Both the position numbers and the translations under genes were made by a program. From IMG/VR virus record IMGVR_UViG_2529293065_000012: DNA of 26,750 nucleotides; one strand, written 5' to 3'. The notes under the pieces were generated by a model. It had not been told where the DNA came from, did no database searches, and saw only the letters and a program-made list of their open reading frames with translations. Positions 1-9,301 of the stretch are shown here, in pieces (positions within the stretch are counted from its first letter, which is position 1; every line of letters starts with the position of its first letter). The stretch comes from a virus (taxonomy: Duplodnaviria > Heunggongvirae > Uroviricota > Caudoviricetes).

Positions 1-1005
1 TTAATCCCCCGTGGACACTGCGTGGACACTTACGCCACCTTTCAGCGGATTAAGGGCCACCGCATCCTGCAGGTAATCCGGTGCAAAATGCGCATATGCC
101 ATTGTTTGCTGAATGGTTGCGTGACCAAGAATCTTCTGAAGCGCAATAATGTTTCCTCCGTTCATCACAAAATGGCTGGCGAACGTATGCCGCAGCACAT
201 GTGCAGCCTGGCCTTTTGGTAAATCGGGCTTAACTCTTTTCAGCGCCAGGCAGAATTCCCGGTACTTCACCTCAAACAAGCTGCCTGTTTCTCTGGTTTT
301 GATCGCCTCACAAACTGCCTGCGAAATTGGCACTGTTCTCTTCCGGCCATTTTTGGTTTCAAGAAACGTTACACGGTTATGAACTATCTGTTCACCACGA
401 AGCTTACAAGCTTCACTCCAGCGCGCCCCTGTGCTTAAACACAAAAGCGCAACACGCCAGTAGTCGCCCTCCAGTGTATCGAGCAATAGCGCCACTTCCT
501 TCTGTGACAGGAACGCCATTTCTCGTGGAGATACATAAAGAATAGAAATTCCCCTTACTGGATGTTCTGCATCCCAAAGACCTATTTTTTTCAGCACGGT
601 AAACATTCCGGATAACCGATTCATGTACCTGTTAGCAGATGACGGTTTCAATCCTTCAGCTATCTTTTGAGAACGCCACGCGATAATTTTCAGCTTATCA
701 AGATCCACAGCCTGCATATCAGCGCCAAGCTCATTAATTATGTTGCGCAGTTGTTTTCGGTCTTCTTCCGCCTTACGCCTGTGCTGGCCGTGATACATCC
801 ACCACAACTCAAGCAAATCATTTAGCGTTCGACGATCACGGTAGCCCTGTATATATTCCCGCTTTTCAGCGTTCGCCATGATGTAGCGTTCAGTGGCCAC
901 CGCTACCGATTTTTTGTCAAATACCTTACGCACGCGCTTTCCCTTGCGTCCGTTCGGCCTGATGTCCAGCAAATAACGACCATCTTCGAGCTTCTTAATC
1001 GACAT
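1..1005 (-). CDS. int: P2-family tyrosine integrase
   Basis: ORF 1..1020 (-). N-terminus MSIKKLEDGRY resembles P2 Int; C-terminal HxLRHTFAS and GHATIQQTMAYAH motifs are typical of the tyrosine recombinase catalytic domain. ATG at 1003-1005 is preceded by GGAGGG. Stop codon is at the window edge. Confidence 0.9.
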   Translation of the reverse strand: MSIKKLEDGRYLLDIRPNGRKGKRVRKVFDKKSVAVATERYIMANAEKREYIQGYRDRRTLNDLLELWWMYHGQHRRKAEEDRKQLRNIINELGADMQAVDLDKLKIIAWRSQKIAEGLKPSSANRYMNRLSGMFTVLKKIGLWDAEHPVRGISILYVSPREMAFLSQKEVALLLDTLEGDYWRVALLCLSTGARWSEACKLRGEQIVHNRVTFLETKNGRKRTVPISQAVCEAIKTRETGSLFEVKYREFCLALKRVKPDLPKGQAAHVLRHTFASHFVMNGGNIIALQKILGHATIQQTMAYAHFAPDYLQDAVALNPLKGGVSVHAVSTGD

Positions 1006-1101
1006 TACGAAGCCCTCCAATGAACCGCTCTACAATTTCTCCAGCCTCTTTCCAGCAATAATCAGACCAGACAAAAAGCAGGTCTAACCAGTTTTCTGGC
1101 C

Positions 1102-1422
1102 TCAGCGGGATAATTTTTGGATTGTTTCGGTTGAAACGCGATCTCCCTCCGAATTGCAGGAACCATCAAGAGAGAGAGCCGGAGAAATTTGCCCGACCTC
1201 CGGCATCGTTTCATCTGTTGATAACCAATAAGCATACTTCTTAAATTTAGGGTGTTTCGTAACCTTAAGTAAGGCACCCTCTGTTACTTGCTTCCCCCTC
1301 ACCTCATAGTTAGTTACCGTCCCATAAGGCAGCCCAACACAATCCGCAAACTCCTGGCGGGTCATACCTTCTGCTTCACGAATCAGGCGAAATTTTTCAC
1401 CCATGCTTGACAAAGATGCCAT
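1102..1422 (-). CDS. Immunity repressor (P2 C-like); start uncertain (1422, 1440 or 1476)
   Basis: ORF 1102..1476 (-). Helix-turn-helix segment (MTRQEFADCVGLPYGTVTNYE) and C-terminal KFKKYAYWLSTDE...GQISPAL resemble the P2 C repressor as I recall it. Lies upstream of int on the same strand and divergent from cox, as in P2. Confidence 0.7.
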   Translation of the reverse strand: MASLSSMGEKFRLIREAEGMTRQEFADCVGLPYGTVTNYEVRGKQVTEGALLKVTKHPKFKKYAYWLSTDETMPEVGQISPALSLDGSCNSEGDRVSTETIQKLSR

Positions 1423-3378: not shown

Positions 3379-3582
3379 ATGGCAATTAAGCATTTTCCTG
3401 TCGTTCGTTTTACCTCCAGAGGGCGTGAATACGAAGTCGACGAACGCCTGATTACCACAATCGACAAACACCGTTCGGAAAAGGATGCACACCACATCTA
3501 CCTCACTGACGGCACTTACTTCTGCGCCACCAACGTGGCGCGGGTGAATCTTATCCGACAGGTACAGGAGCCACGCAGATGA
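3379..3582 (+). CDS. Hypothetical early-region protein (67 aa)
   Basis: Strong ribosome-binding site AAGGAGG 6 nt upstream of the ATG. Stop overlaps the next ATG (ATGA). Confidence 0.6.
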   Translation: MAIKHFPVVRFTSRGREYEVDERLITTIDKHRSEKDAHHIYLTDGTYFCATNVARVNLIRQVQEPRR

Positions 3583-3845
3583 CCATTCTGGACTACATCG
3601 CTACCCATCCGGGTTGTAGCGGCGGAGAAATCGCCGCAGCATTGAATACCCCAACCACAGCCATCAATGCTGAGTTACGCCGACTCTGGCGCGGCGGCTT
3701 AGTCATCAGAACAAACCGCAGCACAGGTGGTCGCGCTCGCAAAGCAGGAGGCCAAGCTTCTTACCACGTAAACCCGATGCCGTTCGGGTGTAGCAATCCA
3801 CTTACTCACATGTTTAACCAGCTACTGAAGGAAACCAGAGCATGA
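3579..3845 (+). CDS. Hypothetical early-region protein (88 aa), possibly a winged-helix DNA-binding protein
   Basis: ATGA overlap at both ends. Basic, Arg/Gly-rich C-terminal half. Confidence 0.6.
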   Translation: MTILDYIATHPGCSGGEIAAALNTPTTAINAELRRLWRGGLVIRTNRSTGGRARKAGGQASYHVNPMPFGCSNPLTHMFNQLLKETRA

Positions 3846-4141
3846 GCACCATCAATCACCAGAAGCTACGCGAACTGGCATTTGCCCTGCAACGAATGGC
3901 AACGCCTCAAAAATTACTGGTATTTCGCGCAATGCTCTCGCCGTCTGCTGTGCTGGCACTGCTGGATGAGCTGGAGCACGCCAGAACCACGGCTCCTGCC
4001 ATTCGCCTGACGCTCCATCATGAAATCGCTGATTTCTGCGCGACGTTGAAGGCGCCAGGCGAACCGGAAACACCGGAAGCAATACAGCAAGAGCTGCTGC
4101 AACGCATTGACAAGGTTTTTGATTTTTTTCTGAACCAGTAA
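3842..4141 (+). CDS. Hypothetical early-region protein (99 aa)
   Basis: ATGA-coupled to the upstream gene. Coding-like composition. Confidence 0.6.
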   Translation: MSTINHQKLRELAFALQRMATPQKLLVFRAMLSPSAVLALLDELEHARTTAPAIRLTLHHEIADFCATLKAPGEPETPEAIQQELLQRIDKVFDFFLNQ

Positions 4142-4232
4142 GAAACCAGAACATGCACACACAAAAAAACCGCTTGCCATGCCGCAATCAGTCAGGTTAC
4201 ATTTCCGCTGCACCTCACAAAACGGGTGTCGG

Positions 4233-4258
4233 GTTTCGCAGCCTGCTGACTACACAAG
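4233..4258 (+). repeat. Upstream target-site module (GTTTCGCAGC ... CTACACAAG) complementary to the candidate antisense RNA
   Basis: TTCGCAG at 4235-4241 and CTACACAAG at 4250-4258. Both motifs recur at 4411-4453, and both are complementary to sequence inside 4364-4385. Confidence 0.5.
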
Positions 4259-4325
4259 CGCACAACCGCGCCAGCGGTTTTTTTGTGCGTACTGTATTGC
4301 CACGTTTTTTTCGCGTCAGAATTAT

Positions 4326-4401
4326 GGCGGGGCGTACGGGGCCGACTTCGGTCGGGCCGGGTTCTTGTGTAGCCGGTACTGCGAACCTCGTACGTCTCGC
4401 C
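4326..4401 (+). ncRNA. Candidate c4/CI-type antisense RNA (three-way junction fold, about 76 nt)
   Basis: 13-bp closing stem 4326-4338 / 4389-4401 with two G-U pairs that work only on the plus-strand transcript. Hairpin with a UUCG tetraloop at 4342-4355. Second hairpin 4360-4387 carries CUUGUGUAG (4364-4372) and CUGCGAA (4379-4385), complementary to the flanking repeats. No convincing ORF across the region. Confidence 0.45.
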
Positions 4402-4408
4402 ACCCACA

Positions 4409-4456
4409 GTTTCGCAGCTCTGGATGGTGAGTTTTCACAACTTACTACACAAGGGG
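4409..4456 (+). repeat. Downstream target-site module overlapping the ribosome-binding site of the ORF at 4464
   Basis: TTCGCAG at 4411-4417 and CTACACAAG at 4445-4453. AAGGGG Shine-Dalgarno at 4451-4456 sits 7 nt before ATG 4464. Confidence 0.5.
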
Positions 4457-4463
4457 CCACACC

Positions 4464-4655
4464 ATGGCAAACCGCAAACCACACCGCGCTATCGCGGAGC
4501 GTCGTCACATCCAGACTGAAATCAACCGCAGACTTTCCCGCGCATCACGCGTCGCGCAAATCATGCACATCAATATGCTGCATGAGCGCAGCCACGCACT
4601 ATCAAACATTTATTCCGCCTCTGTTTTCAGCTATCTGGCGGATGATCTGCACTAG
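4464..4655 (+). CDS. Small basic protein (63 aa) of unknown function, at the position icd occupies in a c4-type module
   Basis: ORF track entry. Shine-Dalgarno AAGGGG upstream. The start region is overlapped by the target repeat. Confidence 0.45.
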   Translation: MANRKPHRAIAERRHIQTEINRRLSRASRVAQIMHINMLHERSHALSNIYSASVFSYLADDLH

Positions 4656-4766
4656 CTTCAACAGCTCATCCAGCAGCAAAACAAACTCCATTAATTCCTG
4701 TTCCGGGCCTTTCCTGCACCTTGCGGCGGGAGGCCTTCGCACATCTGTAACAAGAGGATTGCCGCA

Positions 4767-5132
4767 ATGATTCTCGCCAACGACTTTCTTGAATACCTGC
4801 TCAACACAGAACGTGATCTTGCCGCTCGCGTGCGTGATCGTTATGACATGTACCTGAAATCCCTGCCTGTACCGCAGCTCGCTGACGGAAAGATTGTTAT
4901 TGATGGTCGCTACATGATTGACAGCCACGAGGGAAATTACAGGCTTTACCGCATTGAAGGTGGCACCCCGTCCGTTATTGGCATTTACCAGCGCCCATCC
5001 TCTGCAATCGTCGATGTGATTGCCGACAGCATCCGCATCACACATCGCCATGCCGACACAGAAGACACCGTGCTGGAAATTCAGCGGCTGGCTACAGTCT
5101 GCCGCGACACCCTGAATGGCATGTCGAAGTAA
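4767..5132 (+). CDS. Hypothetical protein (121 aa) immediately upstream of gene A
   Basis: Good ribosome-binding site AAGAGGA about 7 nt before the ATG. Stop lies 6 bp before the gene A start. Confidence 0.6.
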   Translation: MILANDFLEYLLNTERDLAARVRDRYDMYLKSLPVPQLADGKIVIDGRYMIDSHEGNYRLYRIEGGTPSVIGIYQRPSSAIVDVIADSIRITHRHADTEDTVLEIQRLATVCRDTLNGMSK

Positions 5133-5138
5133 ATCACT

Positions 5139-7946
5139 ATGACGGCAGAGTACATCAGGGACTGGCAACAACCGCGCCACGCAGTGGGGCGTGAAGGAAC
5201 GGGGATCCCCGCTCCTGAATCCGCGCTTTCCTCCTGGCTGGATGCCTACCGGGTAGAGAACGAGCGCTGCCAGGAAATGGCTGATGCGGCGTTCTCCGCA
5301 ACGCCGCTGGGCAACCTGATTAATAAAAGCCTGGACGCACAGGAAAAACAGGACAAAACCATCACACTGGCAGGAGACGCCAGAAAACAGGCACGCGGCG
5401 CGGTGGATGAAGCCATGGCTTCGCTGCGCCTGCTGCCGTCCTATCTGCGCGATCCGCTTATTCGCCCCCTCTCCTTCCTGCGCAAAAAACAGGAAGCCGA
5501 TCGTCAGAAAGGCAAAAAGAGCTGGCAGGCTGAACGCTACGCGCGCGGAAACCTGCGCAAAATATTCGAACGTCTGGAGCGCACCGATCACCGCTGGCTG
5601 ACACAGGGTTATCGCTCCCTTGCCGGACGCGAACGCCTGGATGATTTGCTTTACCTGCCGCAGCTCAACCAGCACCAGATACAGACGCTGGCCACCATGA
5701 CGGCGGCGATGTTCAGCAGCACCTTCGAAAAACTCTGCGATGGCTTTGGCGCGACCGATGGCGAACTGACCATGGATGTAACGCTGAAGGCGTATCAGAT
5801 GCTGGCCCGCATGGGGTTACACCTGCACGCCATGCCGCCACATTACGAAGCTCTGAACAAGAGCGATCCGGATACGGAACTGTTACCGGGCGCAATCCTT
5901 CGCCTGACCTGTGCGGAATGGTGGAAACGCAAACTGTGGCTGTTACGTTGCGAGTGGCGGGAAGAACAACTCCGCGCCGCCTGTCTGGTTTCCAGAAAAA
6001 CATCGCCCTATCTGAGCCAGGACGCGTTAAGCGAGTTTCGCGCACAGCGCGAGAAAACACGCGATTTCCTGAAAAGTTTCATGCTGGAAAACGAAGACGG
6101 GTTCACGATTGATCTCGAGACAGTGTATTACGCGGGAGTAAGTAACCCGGTTCACCGTAAGGCAGAAATGATGGCCACCATGAAGGGGCTGGAACTTCTG
6201 GCCGAAGCCCGTGGCGACAAAGCGGTGTTTCTGACCATCACCTGCCCGTCAAAATACCACGCCACAACAGAGAACGGTCATCCGAATCCCAAATGGAACG
6301 GGGCCACCATGCGCGACTCCAGCGATTACCTGGTTAACACGTTTTTTGCGGCGGTCCGCAAGAAACTGAACCGCGACGGCCTGCGCTGGTATGGCATCCG
6401 CACGGTGGAGCCTCACCATGACGGCACCGTGCACTGGCATATGATGGTCTTTGCTCATCCGGAAGAAATCGACACCATTGTGTCCCACACCCGCGATATT
6501 GCCATTCAGGAAGATCGTCACGAGCTGGGTGATGATATTACCCCACGCTTTAAGGCGGAGTACGTCGACGGCTCAAAAGGCACGCCAACCAGCTACATCG
6601 CCACCTACATCGGAAAGAACCTGGACAGCCGCGCCGTAGATGGCATCGACCCGAAAACGGGCAAGCCACGCGTTGACCACGAAACCGGAAAATCAATGGC
6701 CGAGAGCGTGGAACGCGCCATCGGCTGGGCGCGCCTTCACCGTGTCCGCCAGTTCCAGTTCTTTGGTATCCCCTCCCGTCAGGTGTGGCGTGAACTCCGC
6801 CGCCTTGCCAGCCAGATGGCACGCAACCCGGAAGGCCCGCAACGGCTGAAGGATGACGCAATGGATGCGGTACTCGCTGCCGCTGATGCCGGATGTTTTG
6901 CCACCTACATAGAGAAACAGGGCGGCGTACTTGTTCCACGCCAAGACTACCTGATTCGCACCGCCTACGACCTCGCAGATGAGCTGAACGATTACGGCGA
7001 ACAGAGCGTACAGATTTACGGGATCTGGTCGCCGCTCATCGGGGAGTCTTCCCGCGTATGCACGCATCCGGATAACTGGAAGCTGGTAAGACGCAAACCG
7101 GAAGCGGAAGACAGCTCCCACGAAAATGGTTTTGACCTTCAGGGCGGCCCTGCCGCCCCTTGGACTCGTGGCAATAACTGTCCCCGTGTACAGGAAACGG
7201 ACAACAACGGGACAGAACAGCCGGAAGAACGGCCAGCACCGTGGCCGCAGCTTCCTGACGGCGTTGACGTGAATGAATGGATGCGCTCACTGAAACGGCA
7301 CGAACGCCGGGCGCTGATGCGTTCGCTGCGTGACAAACAGGCAAAAAACAGCAGTGATGAAATGCAGAACTGGACACAGAGCCGCAAACAGCCACAGCCT
7401 TTGCCTGATAACCACGAGTTACTCGCTAAAGAATGGCGGGAGTCTGCTGAATCTCTCGGCCTGCATATCGGTGAACAGCAGATGCAGCACCTGTTACGGG
7501 GCGGCAGTCTGTACGTTGACGGCAGCATCATTGCACCGCAGGGATTTGAAATTGTACGCAAACCGGATACCCGCCCGGACAGCCGAATCACGCAGCTCTG
7601 GCAACGCCTGAGTCGTAATCACGGCGTAAGCAGCACGGAGATCCGCCATAACCCGGTCGCCAGCTATCTGGAACAACTAGAGGCATCAGACCCTGAAGCC
7701 GCCGCACGCCTGGCATCCACACTTCAGCAAGACCAGAACACCATGAAAACACCAGTTACCGTACTTTCTGACATGCTGCGCGCCATCCGCGACGCAGAGC
7801 ACGCACAGAGAATCAGTGAAACCACTGAACGCGCCCGCCGCAAAGCAGACCTGCTGCGGGGTGGCCTGAGCAGTGGAAACAAAAAACAGACAAAAACGGG
7901 ATTCACAAATCCCGTAAATGAGCAAAAAACGCGCCGCGATATATGA
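5139..7946 (+). CDS. A: Rolling-circle replication initiator endonuclease (P2 gpA family), with a long C-terminal extension
   Basis: 935 aa. HUH-type motifs (TITCPSKYHATT ... HWHMMVF) and the catalytic tyrosine region (SYIATYIGKN) match P2 A. The roughly 170 C-terminal residues are low-complexity and charged. Confidence 0.9.
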   Translation: MTAEYIRDWQQPRHAVGREGTGIPAPESALSSWLDAYRVENERCQEMADAAFSATPLGNLINKSLDAQEKQDKTITLAGDARKQARGAVDEAMASLRLLPSYLRDPLIRPLSFLRKKQEADRQKGKKSWQAERYARGNLRKIFERLERTDHRWLTQGYRSLAGRERLDDLLYLPQLNQHQIQTLATMTAAMFSSTFEKLCDGFGATDGELTMDVTLKAYQMLARMGLHLHAMPPHYEALNKSDPDTELLPGAILRLTCAEWWKRKLWLLRCEWREEQLRAACLVSRKTSPYLSQDALSEFRAQREKTRDFLKSFMLENEDGFTIDLETVYYAGVSNPVHRKAEMMATMKGLELLAEARGDKAVFLTITCPSKYHATTENGHPNPKWNGATMRDSSDYLVNTFFAAVRKKLNRDGLRWYGIRTVEPHHDGTVHWHMMVFAHPEEIDTIVSHTRDIAIQEDRHELGDDITPRFKAEYVDGSKGTPTSYIATYIGKNLDSRAVDGIDPKTGKPRVDHETGKSMAESVERAIGWARLHRVRQFQFFGIPSRQVWRELRRLASQMARNPEGPQRLKDDAMDAVLAAADAGCFATYIEKQGGVLVPRQDYLIRTAYDLADELNDYGEQSVQIYGIWSPLIGESSRVCTHPDNWKLVRRKPEAEDSSHENGFDLQGGPAAPWTRGNNCPRVQETDNNGTEQPEERPAPWPQLPDGVDVNEWMRSLKRHERRALMRSLRDKQAKNSSDEMQNWTQSRKQPQPLPDNHELLAKEWRESAESLGLHIGEQQMQHLLRGGSLYVDGSIIAPQGFEIVRKPDTRPDSRITQLWQRLSRNHGVSSTEIRHNPVASYLEQLEASDPEAAARLASTLQQDQNTMKTPVTVLSDMLRAIRDAEHAQRISETTERARRKADLLRGGLSSGNKKQTKTGFTNPVNEQKTRRDI

Positions 7947-8022: not shown

Positions 8023-8982
8023 ATGAAAATTTGTATCGACGACGGCTCCACCAACATCAAGCTGGCATGGACTGAGAACGGCGAATGCCGCAACGCCATC
8101 AGCCCGAACAGCTTCAAGTCGGAATGGTCTGCGCCGTTCGGTGTCACGCAGCCCGCGAACTACATGCTTGATGGCGTGCGCTATGGTTTTGATCCGGTCA
8201 GCGATCGCTTTGTCCAGACGACCGACACGCAATACCAGTACAGCGATGTGAATGTCATTGCCATTCATCACGCGCTGGTCAAATCAGGCATCACGCCACA
8301 GGAAGTGGATGTGGTTGTCACCCTGCCACTGAGCGAGTATTTCGACACAAACGCACAGCCGGATATGACCAACATCAACCGCAAAAAAGCGAACGTCATG
8401 CGCCCGGTGGAGTACCAGAACGGTGAGGCATTCACTATCCGTAACGTGCGGGTTATGCCTGAATCCATTCCGGCTGGCTTTAAGGCACTGGCTAACATGA
8501 GTCCGTTTGAATCCCTGCTGATTGTGGATTTAGGCGGAACCACGCTGGATGTGGCAAAGGTTCAGGGGCAACTGGCAGGTATCAGCCAGGTGTTTTGCGA
8601 TCCACACGTAGGCGTTTCTCTGATGGCCGATGCCGTACTGTCGGTGATGGCCACTAACGGTATGCGCACCAGTCACCACATCGCCAATACCATTATCGAA
8701 CATCGCCATGATGAAGCCTGGCTGCGCCAGCACATCCACAATGACGCGCATTACGCCAGCCTGATGGCGGTTATTCGTGAAAAGGAAGAAACACTGAAAC
8801 AACGCGTGATCCGCGCGCTGGCGGTTTTTTCGGGTTACGGGCGGGTGATGGTTGTCGGTGGCGGGGCGGAGATTGTGGCACCCGCTATCCGCGAAGCCTG
8901 CGGAGTTAATGCGACTTTCATCGCGGACGGGGTGCCACAGTTTGCTCTGGTTAATGGGCTGTACGCAATGGACAAGGAGTAA
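8023..8982 (+). CDS. parM: ParM/StbA-like actin-family partition ATPase
   Basis: 319 aa. IDDGSTNIKLAW, ISPNSFK, YSDVNVIAIHHAL, VMPESIPAG, LIVDLGGTTLD, GVSL and VVGGGAE align with my recollection of plasmid R1 ParM. AAGGA ribosome-binding site. Confidence 0.85.
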   Translation: MKICIDDGSTNIKLAWTENGECRNAISPNSFKSEWSAPFGVTQPANYMLDGVRYGFDPVSDRFVQTTDTQYQYSDVNVIAIHHALVKSGITPQEVDVVVTLPLSEYFDTNAQPDMTNINRKKANVMRPVEYQNGEAFTIRNVRVMPESIPAGFKALANMSPFESLLIVDLGGTTLDVAKVQGQLAGISQVFCDPHVGVSLMADAVLSVMATNGMRTSHHIANTIIEHRHDEAWLRQHIHNDAHYASLMAVIREKEETLKQRVIRALAVFSGYGRVMVVGGGAEIVAPAIREACGVNATFIADGVPQFALVNGLYAMDKE

Positions 8983-8986
8983 ACCA

Positions 8987-9301
8987 ATGACGACATCAAC
9001 CAGACGGATAAGTTTCTATCTGAAGCCAGACGCCGTCAAGAGTGAACAAGAGGCGTGCAATTACCTCGATAGCCTGCCAGCCTCCGAACGCAGCCGCGCG
9101 CAACGCGCGGCCTTTCTGGCCGGACTGGCACTCATAAAACGCAACCCAGCATTTGCCTACTGGATGGCCGAATGGCCAGAGGATAACCTCCCCTTCAATA
9201 CCATTAGCACCAAGGAAACATACCAAGATAATCCGCCTAGCGGAATTGAATGCAATTTTTATAAAATAAAAAAGAATATTCAGACCTTATTCCCTGAATA
9301 A
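8987..9301 (+). CDS. parR: ParR-like centromere-binding adaptor
   Basis: 104 aa from the ATG at 8987 (in frame within ORF 8852..9301), AAGGAG 8 nt upstream. ISFYLKPD...LDSLPASERSRAQRAAFLAGLAL parallels the R1 ParR N-terminal ribbon-helix-helix region. Lies immediately downstream of the parM-like gene. Confidence 0.7.
   Translation: MTTSTRRISFYLKPDAVKSEQEACNYLDSLPASERSRAQRAAFLAGLALIKRNPAFAYWMAEWPEDNLPFNTISTKETYQDNPPSGIECNFYKIKKNIQTLFPE

What the first reader, a model, noticed from the sequence alone, without database searches (positions are those of the whole stretch)
4464..5132. Two unrecognised ORFs wedged between the early operon and replication gene A
Seen in sequence: a 63-aa basic ORF (4464-4655) and a 121-aa ORF (4767-5132) with a good ribosome-binding site, ending 6 bp before gene A. 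In canonical P2 gene A follows the small early ORFs directly. If the upstream RNA is c4-like, these two are the regulated genes, analogous to icd/ant in P1 or the replication operon in P4, and might encode an anti-repressor, a division inhibitor or a replication accessory factor. Neither protein is one I can assign.
Basis: inference. Interest (0 to 1): 0.45.

Follow-up and report, generated by a model that had tools for sequence, protein, structure and literature searches.

The report
RNA-gated antirepressor gene plus replication-module gene
The two small genes upstream of replication gene A in this P2-like E. coli prophage are real but unrelated to each other: the first is a homologue of the satellite phage P4 antirepressor, held in check by a C4-type antisense RNA, and the second is this phage group's version of the small P2 gene (Orf83) that always precedes gene A.

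Summary
Both ORFs sit exactly where stated and are real genes (dN/dS 0.29 and 0.20, against about 1 in the other frames). The window is a P88-like (Xuanwuvirus) P2-family prophage.

ORF1 (4464-4655) is already recognised. It matches Pfam PF25738 and is named "derepression protein" by PGAP. It is a homologue of P4 epsilon/E, the antirepressor that binds the P2 C repressor.

ORF1 is the last part of a ~540-bp cassette that is colinear with the P4 immunity region: an isrK-like leader, a C4/CI RNA, then target boxes, one of which overlaps the ORF1 ribosome-binding site. Across 83 distinct versions of this region the RNA boxes and their targets covary (16 "a" types, 6 "b" types). ORF1 never occurs without the RNA. 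The window's copy carries a premature amber codon (63 aa instead of 76).

ORF2 (4767-5132) is not tied to the RNA. In 34 relatives it is present with no cassette. In about 53 others its slot holds divergent homologues. It is a distant member of DUF5405, the family of P2 Orf83. Its type covaries with the N-terminal 170 residues of gene A.

This is a new member of a known kind, of moderate interest.

The parts
4174..4203 (+). Promoter-like site (TTGCCA-18-TACATT) at the left end of the cassette, ending 7 nt before the isrK-like RNA.
   Evidence: Consensus scan. The sequence from about 4158 onward is conserved in all cassette-bearing loci, while the DNA further upstream differs between loci. Activity has not been shown.
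4210..4284 (+). isrK-like leader RNA, equivalent to the P4 seqA/t1 leader and the c4-a1b1 motif. It carries target boxes b1 (4235-4241, TTCGCAG) and a1 (4250-4258, CTACACAAG) and ends in a terminator hairpin (4264-4279) followed by a T run.
   Evidence: Rfam RF01394, 61.9 bits against a gathering score of 50. Terminator scan. Exact complementarity to the C4 boxes. P4 gives the same two Rfam hits in the same order.
4297..4325 (+). Second promoter-like site (TTGCCA-17-AATTAT) directly upstream of the C4 RNA.
   Evidence: Consensus scan only.
4320..4407 (+). C4/CI-type antisense RNA. Box a2 is 4364-4372 (CTTGTGTAG, in a hairpin loop). Box b2 is 4379-4385 (CTGCGAA, in the junction).
   Evidence: Rfam RF01695, 83.2 bits against a gathering score of 45, covering the full model. 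Fold z-score -3.8.
4411..4453 (+). Downstream target region: box b3 (4411-4417, TTCGCAG) and box a3 (4445-4453, CTACACAAG). Box a3 overlaps the ORF1 Shine-Dalgarno (AAGGGG, 4451-4456).
   Evidence: The 9-mer occurs only twice in the 26.7-kb window, both times flanking C4 on the same strand. Across 83 distinct versions, b2-b3 is fully complementary in 83/83 and a2-a3 in 56/83, with one end mismatch in most of the rest. Shuffled partners give means of 19.6 and 4.9.
4464..4655 (+). ORF1, a homologue of P4 epsilon/E (antirepressor, 'derepression protein'). This is the 63-aa amber allele. The full-length frame runs to 4694 (76 aa).
   Evidence: Pfam PF25738, 30.7 bits against a gathering score of 27. 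P4 epsilon scores 170 bits on that model. BLASTP to P4 epsilon: 29% identity over residues 1-62, pairwise E 3e-9. phrog_3688. dN/dS 0.29. The AlphaFold model of the 76-aa form is a helical hairpin, pLDDT 85.
4695..4766 (+). Conserved non-coding spacer containing a stem-loop at about 4705-4736 and the ORF2 ribosome-binding site. Relatives that lack the cassette keep it.
   Evidence: Nearly invariant in 159 loci with type-I or type-II pre-A genes. The fold is not better than shuffled sequence, z -0.3. Function unknown.
4767..5132 (+). ORF2, the type-I 'pre-A' gene of P88-like phages. It is a distant member of the P2 Orf83 / DUF5405 family with an added N-terminal two-helix segment.
   Evidence: phrog_3237 over its full length. 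dN/dS 0.20. Family members pass the DUF5405 threshold. hhalign to P2 Orf83: E 3e-5. The top Foldseek hit among viral proteins is a DUF5405 protein, E 6.6e-4. The AlphaFold model has pLDDT 81.8.
5139..7946 (+). Replication gene A (935 aa). Its first ~170 residues covary with the type of pre-A gene.
   Evidence: Pfam Phage_GPA, 434.7 bits. In type-II loci, A residues 1-170 are 50% identical to the window's and residues 171-500 are 94% identical. In type-III loci the figures are 32% and 54%.
1102..1422 (-). The prophage's own immunity repressor, of the P2 C family. It is a candidate target of ORF1.
   Evidence: 37% identity to P2 C, E 1e-22, with Trp64 and Thr67 conserved. A Thr67Ile change in P2 C abolishes binding of P4 E (PMC2995052). 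An interaction with ORF1 is inferred, not shown.

Best explanation
The two ORFs belong to different modules.

ORF1 is the protein-coding end of a self-contained cassette of about 540 bp (about 4158-4694). The cassette matches the immunity/derepression region of satellite phage P4 part by part and works like the immI region of P1. It consists of its own promoter, a leader RNA (the Rfam isrK hit) carrying target boxes b1 and a1 and a terminator, a C4/CI-type antisense RNA carrying boxes a2 and b2, a second set of target boxes b3 and a3, and then ORF1. Box a3 overlaps the ORF1 Shine-Dalgarno.

In the lysogen, C4 RNA made from the cassette pairs with b3/a3 and blocks ORF1 translation. It probably also promotes termination or polarity, so that transcription from the cassette promoter does not reach ORF2 and gene A. 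ORF1 is made in two situations. One is when C4 is outcompeted, for example by the short leader RNA, which carries the same boxes and could act as a sponge as IsrK does in Gifsy-1. The other is when a phage whose boxes differ enters a cell carrying a different C4.

ORF1 is a homologue of P4 epsilon/E and most likely acts as an antirepressor that binds a P2 C-type repressor. The target could be the prophage's own repressor, that of a related prophage, or both. In this window ORF1 carries an amber codon at position 64 and lacks the last 13 residues, so it may be weakened or inactive.

ORF2 is not part of the cassette. It is this clade's version of P2 Orf83 (DUF5405), the small gene that precedes gene A. 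It most likely acts with the N-terminal domain of A in replication. Its biochemical role is unknown.

Shown here: the homologies, the colinearity with P4, the box/target covariation, the co-occurrence patterns and purifying selection. Inferred: antirepressor activity, the identity of the target, translation block versus termination, and any ORF2-A interaction.
For: - RNAs: C4 scores 83.2 bits and isrK 61.9 bits. P4 gives the same two hits followed by epsilon.
- Geometry: the box layout is shared. In P4, b3 lies 5 nt after the end of CI, with a3 24 nt further on and then a Shine-Dalgarno. In the window, b3 lies 4 nt after the end of C4, with a3 27 nt further on and then a Shine-Dalgarno.
- Covariation: there are 16 a-types and 6 b-types in 83 distinct regions. 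Full complementarity is found in a2-a1 81/83, b2-b1 80/83, b2-b3 83/83 and a2-a3 56/83. Shuffled partners give means of 5-20.
- ORF1 homology: Pfam PF25738 above threshold. P4 epsilon defines that family. Pairwise E 3e-9.
- ORF1 context: every locus with ORF1 has both RNAs, apart from one locus cut at its edge. Rfam confirms both RNAs in 7 of 7 ORF1 loci tested and neither in 7 of 7 cassette-less loci.
- Candidate target: the prophage's own repressor is a P2 C homologue that keeps Thr67.
- Precedent: IsrK is a structural homologue of the P4 seqA RNA and activates translation of a downstream antirepressor (PMC4825925).
- ORF2 distribution: 34 loci have MarR-ORF2-A with no cassette.
- ORF2 slot: three colinear divergent types occupy it, linked by hhalign at E about 2e-5.
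- ORF2 family: the DUF5405/Orf83 link rests.
- ORF2 and gene A: the ORF2 type tracks the first 170 residues of A.
Against: - ORF1 is only 29% identical to epsilon. It lacks the C-terminal ~30 residues of epsilon, and its Pfam score (30.7) is barely above threshold (27).
- The window's allele is truncated.
- No binding or derepression has been tested.
- The cassette occurs with several repressor types. One of them (phage 520873 type) resembles P2 C only in the helix-turn-helix region. I found no covariation between ORF1 and the repressor, though only 13 loci were usable.
- How the phage expresses gene A during lytic growth, downstream of a terminator and its own C4 RNA, is not explained.
- The covariation shuffles ignore relatedness between loci.
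- The ORF2-to-Orf83 link is remote. The window protein itself scores 14 bits against a threshold of 21.6, and hhalign probability is 73%. The covariation between ORF2 type and the A N-terminus could be simple linkage.
Confidence: 0.6

Rival explanations
1. ORF1 and ORF2 together form the C4-regulated operon. They would be a functional pair such as icd/ant of P1, with ORF2 as an effector (antirepressor, division inhibitor) whose expression depends on the RNA.
For: Both lie downstream of C4 on the same strand, with no strong terminator called between them. ORF1 and ORF2 allele distances correlate weakly, r = 0.36 in 12 haplotypes.
Against: ORF2 is present at 97-99% identity in 20 loci, and at about 68% identity in 14 more, that have no isrK, C4 or ORF1. 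About 53 cassette-bearing loci carry a different pre-A gene type. ORF2 is related to P2 Orf83, which sits before gene A in a phage that has no such annotated RNA cassette. There is no translational coupling: the gap between the ORFs is 111 nt.
Confidence: 0.08
2. ORF1 is mainly a regulatory leader ORF, like orf45 of Gifsy-1 or eta of P4. On this view its translation matters and its product does not. Ribosomes on ORF1 would prevent Rho-dependent termination and so gate transcription into ORF2 and gene A, making the cassette a replication-control switch as in P4.
For: ORF1 is the first ORF after the a3 box, as eta is in P4 and orf45 in Gifsy-1. Gene A lies downstream. A truncated allele found on 249 contigs suggests the C-terminus of the protein is dispensable.
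Against: Selection acts on the protein: dN/dS is 0.29 against about 1 off-frame. Protein-level homology to P4 epsilon runs from residue 1. The predicted hairpin fold is confident. The two roles are not mutually exclusive.
Confidence: 0.12
3. In this particular prophage ORF1 is a dead gene. The amber mutation inactivates the antirepressor, and the cassette now serves only as an RNA-based immunity or replication brake.
For: Codon 64 is TAG where relatives have GAG, and the downstream frame is still intact, which points to a recent event. The truncation removes 12 of the 28 residues of the second helix. Residues 64-69 (ELQxLI) are nearly invariant in relatives.
Against: The identical 63-aa protein is on 249 contigs and in deposited phage genomes P884B11 and PhiR44_2. 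The region aligned with P4 epsilon (residues 1-62) is retained.
Confidence: 0.35

Closest known systems
Satellite phage P4 immunity/derepression region (seqA leader with t1, CI RNA, seqC, eta, epsilon, orf151, orf106, alpha)
   Same: The order of parts is the same and they give the same Rfam hits: isrK model, then C4 model. The two-box targets have the same spacing and the last box overlaps a Shine-Dalgarno. The epsilon-family gene lies downstream, and a replication gene lies further downstream.
   Different: The host element is a complete P2-type phage with its own C/Cox switch, not a satellite. ORF1 sits directly at the a3 box, whereas in P4 a small ORF lies between a3 and epsilon. ORF1 is 63/76 aa against 95 aa. 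There are no orf151 or orf106 homologues. The replication protein is a P2-type gene A nickase rather than the alpha primase.
P1/P7 immI region (c4 RNA, icd, ant1/2), known to me from Citron and Schuster 1990
   Same: A processed C4 antisense RNA with a/b boxes pairs with targets upstream and with targets that overlap the ribosome-binding site of the first downstream gene. The operon encodes an antirepressor. Differences in the boxes define heteroimmunity.
   Different: ORF1 is unrelated to Icd or Ant by any search run here. P1 controls ant through translational coupling to icd and Rho. None of this was tested here.
Gifsy-1 isrK-orf45(STnc1160)-anrP locus (PMC4825925)
   Same: An isrK-family leader RNA with a leaky terminator lies upstream of a processed RNA and an antirepressor gene. 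The short leader RNA acts in trans on the long transcript.
   Different: AnrP is a different protein family. IsrK there activates translation, and a role for the C4-like STnc1160 was only suggested.
P2 Orf83 / Pfam DUF5405 (for ORF2)
   Same: A small gene immediately upstream of replication gene A. It is linked to ORF2 by profile comparison (E 3e-5), by family members passing the Pfam threshold and by the top structural match among viral proteins.
   Different: ORF2 is 121 aa against 91 aa, with an extra N-terminal pair of helices. The window protein itself is below the Pfam threshold (14 bits against 21.6). The function of Orf83 is itself unknown.
Coliphage 186 Tum (my own knowledge)
   Same: An antirepressor encoded by a P2-family phage.
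   Different: Tum is controlled by LexA and acts on the 186 CI-type repressor. Here control is by antisense RNA, no LexA box lies near the cassette, and the resident repressor is of the P2 C type.

Membership tests
P4 epsilon/E antirepressor family (Pfam PF25738 'Derepression') - ORF1 | Sequence match to the family model above the curated threshold. | tested here: met
   30.7 bits against a gathering score of 27, E 2.6e-7. The 76-aa relative P0004 scores 30.8 bits and P4 epsilon 170 bits. The margin is small.
P4 epsilon/E antirepressor family (Pfam PF25738 'Derepression') - ORF1 | Direct similarity to P4 epsilon from the N-terminus. | tested here: met
   BLASTP gives 29% identity and 55% positives over ORF1 residues 1-62 against epsilon residues 1-66, pairwise E 3e-9. 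A tblastn search of the whole phage collection finds P4 at E 0.1. Sixteen columns are invariant in the joint alignment.
P4 epsilon/E antirepressor family (Pfam PF25738 'Derepression') - ORF1 | Full-length architecture (95 aa, including the C-terminal third). | tested here: not met
   ORF1 is 63 aa here and 72-76 aa in relatives. The match covers profile positions 16-66 of 95.
P4 epsilon/E antirepressor family (Pfam PF25738 'Derepression') - ORF1 | Binds a P2 C-type repressor and derepresses the prophage. | not testable with these tools
   Only circumstantial. The resident repressor is a P2 C homologue that keeps Thr67 and Trp64.
C4/CI antisense-RNA-controlled anti-immunity cassette (P1 immI, P4 immunity) | A C4-family RNA upstream on the same strand. 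| tested here: met
   RF01695, 83.2 bits, full model. Present in all ORF1-bearing loci.
C4/CI antisense-RNA-controlled anti-immunity cassette (P1 immI, P4 immunity) | Two-part complementary targets upstream (a1/b1) and downstream (a3/b3), the latter at the ribosome-binding site of the first gene. | tested here: met
   Exact 9-nt and 7-nt complements lie at 4250/4235 and 4445/4411, and a3 overlaps the Shine-Dalgarno. Covariation holds across 16 a-types and 6 b-types.
C4/CI antisense-RNA-controlled anti-immunity cassette (P1 immI, P4 immunity) | The RNA is processed (RNase P) and represses the downstream genes in vivo. | not testable with these tools
   No expression data are available here.
P2 Orf83 / DUF5405 - ORF2 | Match to PF17399 above the curated threshold. 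| tested here: not met
   The window protein scores 14 bits against a threshold of 21.6. Relatives from the same HMM-defined family do pass: P0225 35.8, P0214 29.0, P0228 28.2 bits.
P2 Orf83 / DUF5405 - ORF2 | Profile-level and structural similarity to bona fide members. | tested here: met
   hhalign of the ORF2 family against P2 Orf83 gives E 3e-5, probability 73%, over ORF2 residues 42-117. The best Foldseek hit in BFVD is a DUF5405 protein, E 6.6e-4, target-normalised TM-score 0.66. These are remote matches and should be treated as a distant relationship.
P2 Orf83 / DUF5405 - ORF2 | Position immediately upstream of replication gene A in a P2-family phage. | tested here: met
   ORF2 ends 6 nt before gene A. 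P2 Orf83 overlaps the start of P2 gene A. All three ORF2 types keep this position.
Anti-phage defence systems (PADLOC) - both ORFs | Match to any PADLOC protein model. | tested here: not met
   No hits at E <= 0.1.

The most novel reading that the evidence does not exclude
P88-like P2-family phages carry a second, RNA-based immunity layer whose payload is an epsilon-type antirepressor aimed at the phage's own C repressor. On this reading the balance between C4 and the isrK-like leader RNA is an induction switch for a phage family classically regarded as non-inducible. That would fit the reports that P88 is recovered after mitomycin C treatment and phiSM is released spontaneously. The shared cassette would also mean that satellite P4 and its helper-type phages exchanged the immunity-plus-derepression module. 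The 16 x 6 combinatorial box types would then be the trace of an arms race over cross-immunity among helpers, and possibly between helpers and satellites.
Probability: 0.2. Interest if true: 0.65.

Novelty: new member of a known kind. Interest (0 to 1): 0.38.

Why it matters
If ORF1 is a working antirepressor, a common group of E. coli prophages has P1/P4-style dual immunity: a protein repressor plus an antisense RNA that gates an antirepressor. The matching DNA segment (window 4100-5200, which spans the cassette, ORF2 and the start of gene A) is found in about a quarter of complete E. coli genomes. This bears on how these prophages are induced, on which phages can superinfect which lysogens, and on where satellite P4 obtained the gene it uses to wake its helper. 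For annotation, it shows that ORF2 and its variously named relatives ('inositol monophosphatase') are the Orf83-type gene of the replication module.

Tried and rejected
- ORF2 against P4 orf151 and orf106: no similarity. The P4 parallel therefore stops at epsilon.
- NCBIfam and PADLOC scans of both ORFs: nothing.
- PDB sequence search with the ORF1 family profile: only noise, E >= 0.29.
- LexA-box search, to test for SOS control as in 186 Tum or N15: 8 matches against 8.05 expected, none near the cassette.
- Test for co-variation between ORF1 alleles and repressor type: only 13 loci reached the repressor gene, r = 0.16, inconclusive.
- The genome-contig scan with the ORF1 alignment returned only 3 loci.
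- The first viral scan for ORF2 returned only copies at 96% identity or more. Diversity came from follow-up scans with divergent queries.
- Literature searches for the epsilon-like gene or C4 RNA in P2-like, P88 or Xuanwuvirus phages found no description. The library held is incomplete.
- Folding of the ORF1-ORF2 spacer: not better than shuffled sequence.

Full report
**Where the window comes from.** The segment 4100-5200 is 100% identical to the E. coli IHE3034 chromosome and 95-99.5% identical to phages P88, P884B11 and relatives, which belong to genus Xuanwuvirus in the P2-like family Peduoviridae. It matches 1,279 of 5,426 complete E. coli genomes. The gene order is:
- integrase (1-1020, minus strand);
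- a P2 C-type repressor (1102-1422, minus strand);
- cox (1536-1823);
- small early ORFs;
- a MarR-type gene (3579-3845);
- an Ead/Ea22-like gene (3842-4141);
- two RNA genes;
- ORF1 and ORF2;
- gene A (5139-7946);
- ParM and StbB-like genes.

**Checking the observation.** Both ORFs are at the stated coordinates. ORF1 is basic (pI 11.2). ORF2 has an AAGAGGA ribosome-binding site and ends 6 nt before gene A. Because short ORFs are common by chance, I tested for coding across relatives. Median pairwise dN/dS is 0.29 for ORF1 and 0.20 for ORF2 in the annotated frames, against 1.0-1.26 in the other two frames. All 123 full-length type-I ORF2 copies are intact. Both ORFs match PHROG families end to end. 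Both are real genes.

**ORF1 is an epsilon-family gene.**
- ORF1 passes the Pfam PF25738 'Derepression' threshold (30.7 bits against 27).
- P4 epsilon, the protein that derepresses prophage P2, scores 170 bits on that model.
- A direct comparison gives 29% identity from residue 1 to 62, pairwise E 3e-9.
- RefSeq already names the identical protein 'derepression protein'.
- P4 epsilon (also called E) is an antirepressor with no DNA binding of its own. It forms a complex with the P2 C repressor, and a Thr67Ile change in C abolishes the interaction (PMC2995052).
- The window's own repressor is 37% identical to P2 C (E 1e-22) and keeps Trp64 and Thr67.
- The AlphaFold model of the 76-aa form is a two-helix hairpin (pLDDT 85).
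- No related solved structure exists.

**ORF1 here is a nonsense allele.** Of 147 related loci, 117 encode 76 aa and only 3 encode 63 aa. In the window, codon 64 is TAG where the nearest relatives have GAG, and the old frame continues as LQQLIQQQNKLH to a TAA at 4692-4694. The truncation removes 12 residues of helix 2. The exact 63-aa protein is nonetheless on 249 contigs and in two deposited phage genomes. Whether it still works is open.

**ORF1 is controlled by the C4 RNA.**
- Rfam finds a C4 antisense RNA at 4320-4407 (83.2 bits) and an isrK-type RNA at 4210-4284 (61.9 bits).
- P4 gives the same two hits in the same order just upstream of epsilon. The C4 hit there is the P4 CI immunity RNA, and the isrK hit overlaps the 'c4-a1b1' target motif.
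- In the window, the C4 loop box a2 (4364-4372) and junction box b2 (4379-4385) are exactly complementary to b1/a1 inside the leader (4235-4241, 4250-4258).
- They are also exactly complementary to b3/a3 downstream (4411-4417, 4445-4453).
- Box a3 overlaps the ORF1 Shine-Dalgarno. The 9-mer occurs nowhere else in the 26.7-kb window.
- P4 has the same layout with different box sequences.
- Across 148 related loci there are 83 distinct versions of this region, with 16 a-types and 6 b-types in shuffled combinations.
- Each C4 matches its own targets. Full complementarity is found in a2-a1 81/83, b2-b1 80/83 and b2-b3 83/83. For a2-a3 it is 56/83, mostly with one terminal mismatch otherwise.
- Randomly reassigned partners give means of 5-20. 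These shuffles do not correct for relatedness, but the number of independent box types makes chance or mere inheritance an unlikely explanation.
- Every locus with ORF1 has both RNAs, except one cut at its edge. An Rfam check gave both RNAs in 7 of 7 ORF1 loci and neither in 7 of 7 cassette-less loci.

**The cassette.**
- Conservation starts at about 4158, just before a promoter-like site at 4174-4203. Upstream of that point the relatives have at least five different contexts.
- Homology with cassette-less relatives resumes at about 4655. Those phages still carry the last 13 codons of ORF1 out of context, which suggests the cassette was lost from them.
- In the primary transcript the leader boxes can pair with the C4 boxes in cis.
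- A terminator-like hairpin (4396-4431, followed by UUUUC) competes with the closing stem of C4.
- In Gifsy-1, the short IsrK RNA acts in trans on the long isrK-orf45-anrP transcript and switches on translation of the antirepressor AnrP. The authors note that IsrK is a structural homologue of the P4 seqA RNA and that a processed RNA downstream may correspond to CI (PMC4825925).
- By analogy, the leader RNA here may both receive C4 and titrate it.

**ORF2 belongs to the replication module, not to the cassette.**
- Thirty-four loci, including phages 520873 and 503458, have MarR, then about 145 nt, then ORF2, then gene A, with no RNAs and no ORF1. Twenty of them have ORF2 at 97-99% identity to the window.
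- Conversely, about 53 cassette-bearing loci have in the same slot a 129-aa ORF (type II, often mislabelled 'inositol monophosphatase') or a 137-aa ORF (type III).
- The three types align colinearly at 18-23% identity and share motifs. hhalign links them at E about 2e-5.
- The family is small: 54 representatives among 1.84 billion proteins.
- Several members pass the Pfam DUF5405 threshold.
- P2 Orf83, the gene that overlaps the start of P2 gene A, is a DUF5405 protein (50 bits).
- The ORF2 family profile aligns to Orf83 at E 3e-5.
- The ORF2 model (pLDDT 81.8; two helices, four strands, two helices) has a DUF5405 protein as its best match among viral structures.
- The ORF2 type tracks the first 170 residues of A. 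In type-II loci that segment is 50% identical to the window's while residues 171-500 are 94% identical. This fits a functional partnership but could also be plain linkage.

**How it most likely works, and what remains open.** The best-supported reading is an RNA-gated antirepressor cassette of the P1 immI / P4 type, sitting in the early operon of a P2-type phage, followed by the ordinary Orf83-like gene and gene A. Four things remain unexplained:
- which repressor ORF1 acts on. The cassette occurs with several C types, and my association test was underpowered;
- how gene A is expressed in lytic growth, given that it lies downstream of a terminator and the phage's own C4;
- whether the amber allele is functional;
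- what triggers release. No LexA box lies nearby, although P88 is recovered after mitomycin C treatment and phiSM is released spontaneously.

**Comparison with what is known, and novelty.** All the component types are known: C4/CI RNAs with a/b targets, isrK/seqA leaders, the epsilon antirepressor and DUF5405. Current annotation resources detect most of them. I found no paper in the held library describing this cassette in P2-like, P88 or Xuanwuvirus phages. What is new is the setting, a helper-type phage carrying the satellite's immunity-plus-derepression module, and the extent of box diversification. I rate it a new member of a known kind, with interest 0.38.

Noticed in passing
window 4210-4460; loci L010-L169: The C4 boxes and their targets come in at least 16 'a' types and 6 'b' types, recombined in many combinations among closely related E. 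coli prophages. This points to many RNA-immunity specificities and diversifying selection.
   Followed up: partly
L163/L084-type and L101 loci (IMG/VR contigs), the region equivalent to window 4235-4453: A few recombinant loci carry a C4 whose a2 box does not match its own a1/a3 targets, or whose b2 does not match b1. They may be unable to repress their own ORF1.
   Followed up: no
window 4153-4770 (+), L003 3041-3457: The long chance ORF over the isrK/C4 RNAs scores 25 bits on Pfam Phage_ASH (PF10554, threshold 26). The old P4 'cI 137-aa' ORF scores 59.7 bits. That protein family therefore appears to be a translation of the RNA genes. One record annotates the RNA region as 'similar to ash family protein', and a P4-satellite survey used PF10554 as its epsilon marker.
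   Followed up: partly
window 8023-8982 and 8987-9301 (+): ParM (StbA_N and ParM_N, 273 and 231 bits) and StbB/ParR-like (Plasmid_stab_B, 101 bits) partition genes lie directly after gene A in an integrated P2-like prophage. They are conserved in P88, phiSM and 520873. This hints at a plasmid-like phase or a segregation function.
   Followed up: partly
window 4695-4766: The spacer between ORF1 and ORF2 is almost invariant in 159 loci, including those without the cassette and those with a type-II pre-A gene. It contains a 14-bp stem-loop (about 4705-4736) with no U tract. Its predicted fold is not better than shuffled sequence.
   Followed up: partly
window 4396-4434: A terminator-like hairpin followed by UUUUC uses the 3' arm of the C4 closing stem and holds box b3 in its loop, so it is mutually exclusive with the C4 fold. 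It could be a counterpart of the P4 terminators downstream of cI (the comparison to P4 is from my own knowledge).
   Followed up: no
loci L115, L105, L007 etc. (type-II pre-A gene); proteins P0172, P0177, P0179: The 129-aa type-II homologues of ORF2 are named 'inositol monophosphatase' in many NCBI records. This is almost certainly a propagated misannotation.
   Followed up: no
window 5139-5648: The first ~170 residues of the 935-aa gene A protein have no Pfam match. They are exchanged as a unit with the upstream pre-A gene type, while the nickase core stays 94% identical.
   Followed up: partly
cluster 1: The 90%-identity cluster that holds the 63-aa ORF1 protein has a 129-aa type-II pre-A protein as its representative. 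This is probably a clustering artefact caused by fused gene calls.
   Followed up: no
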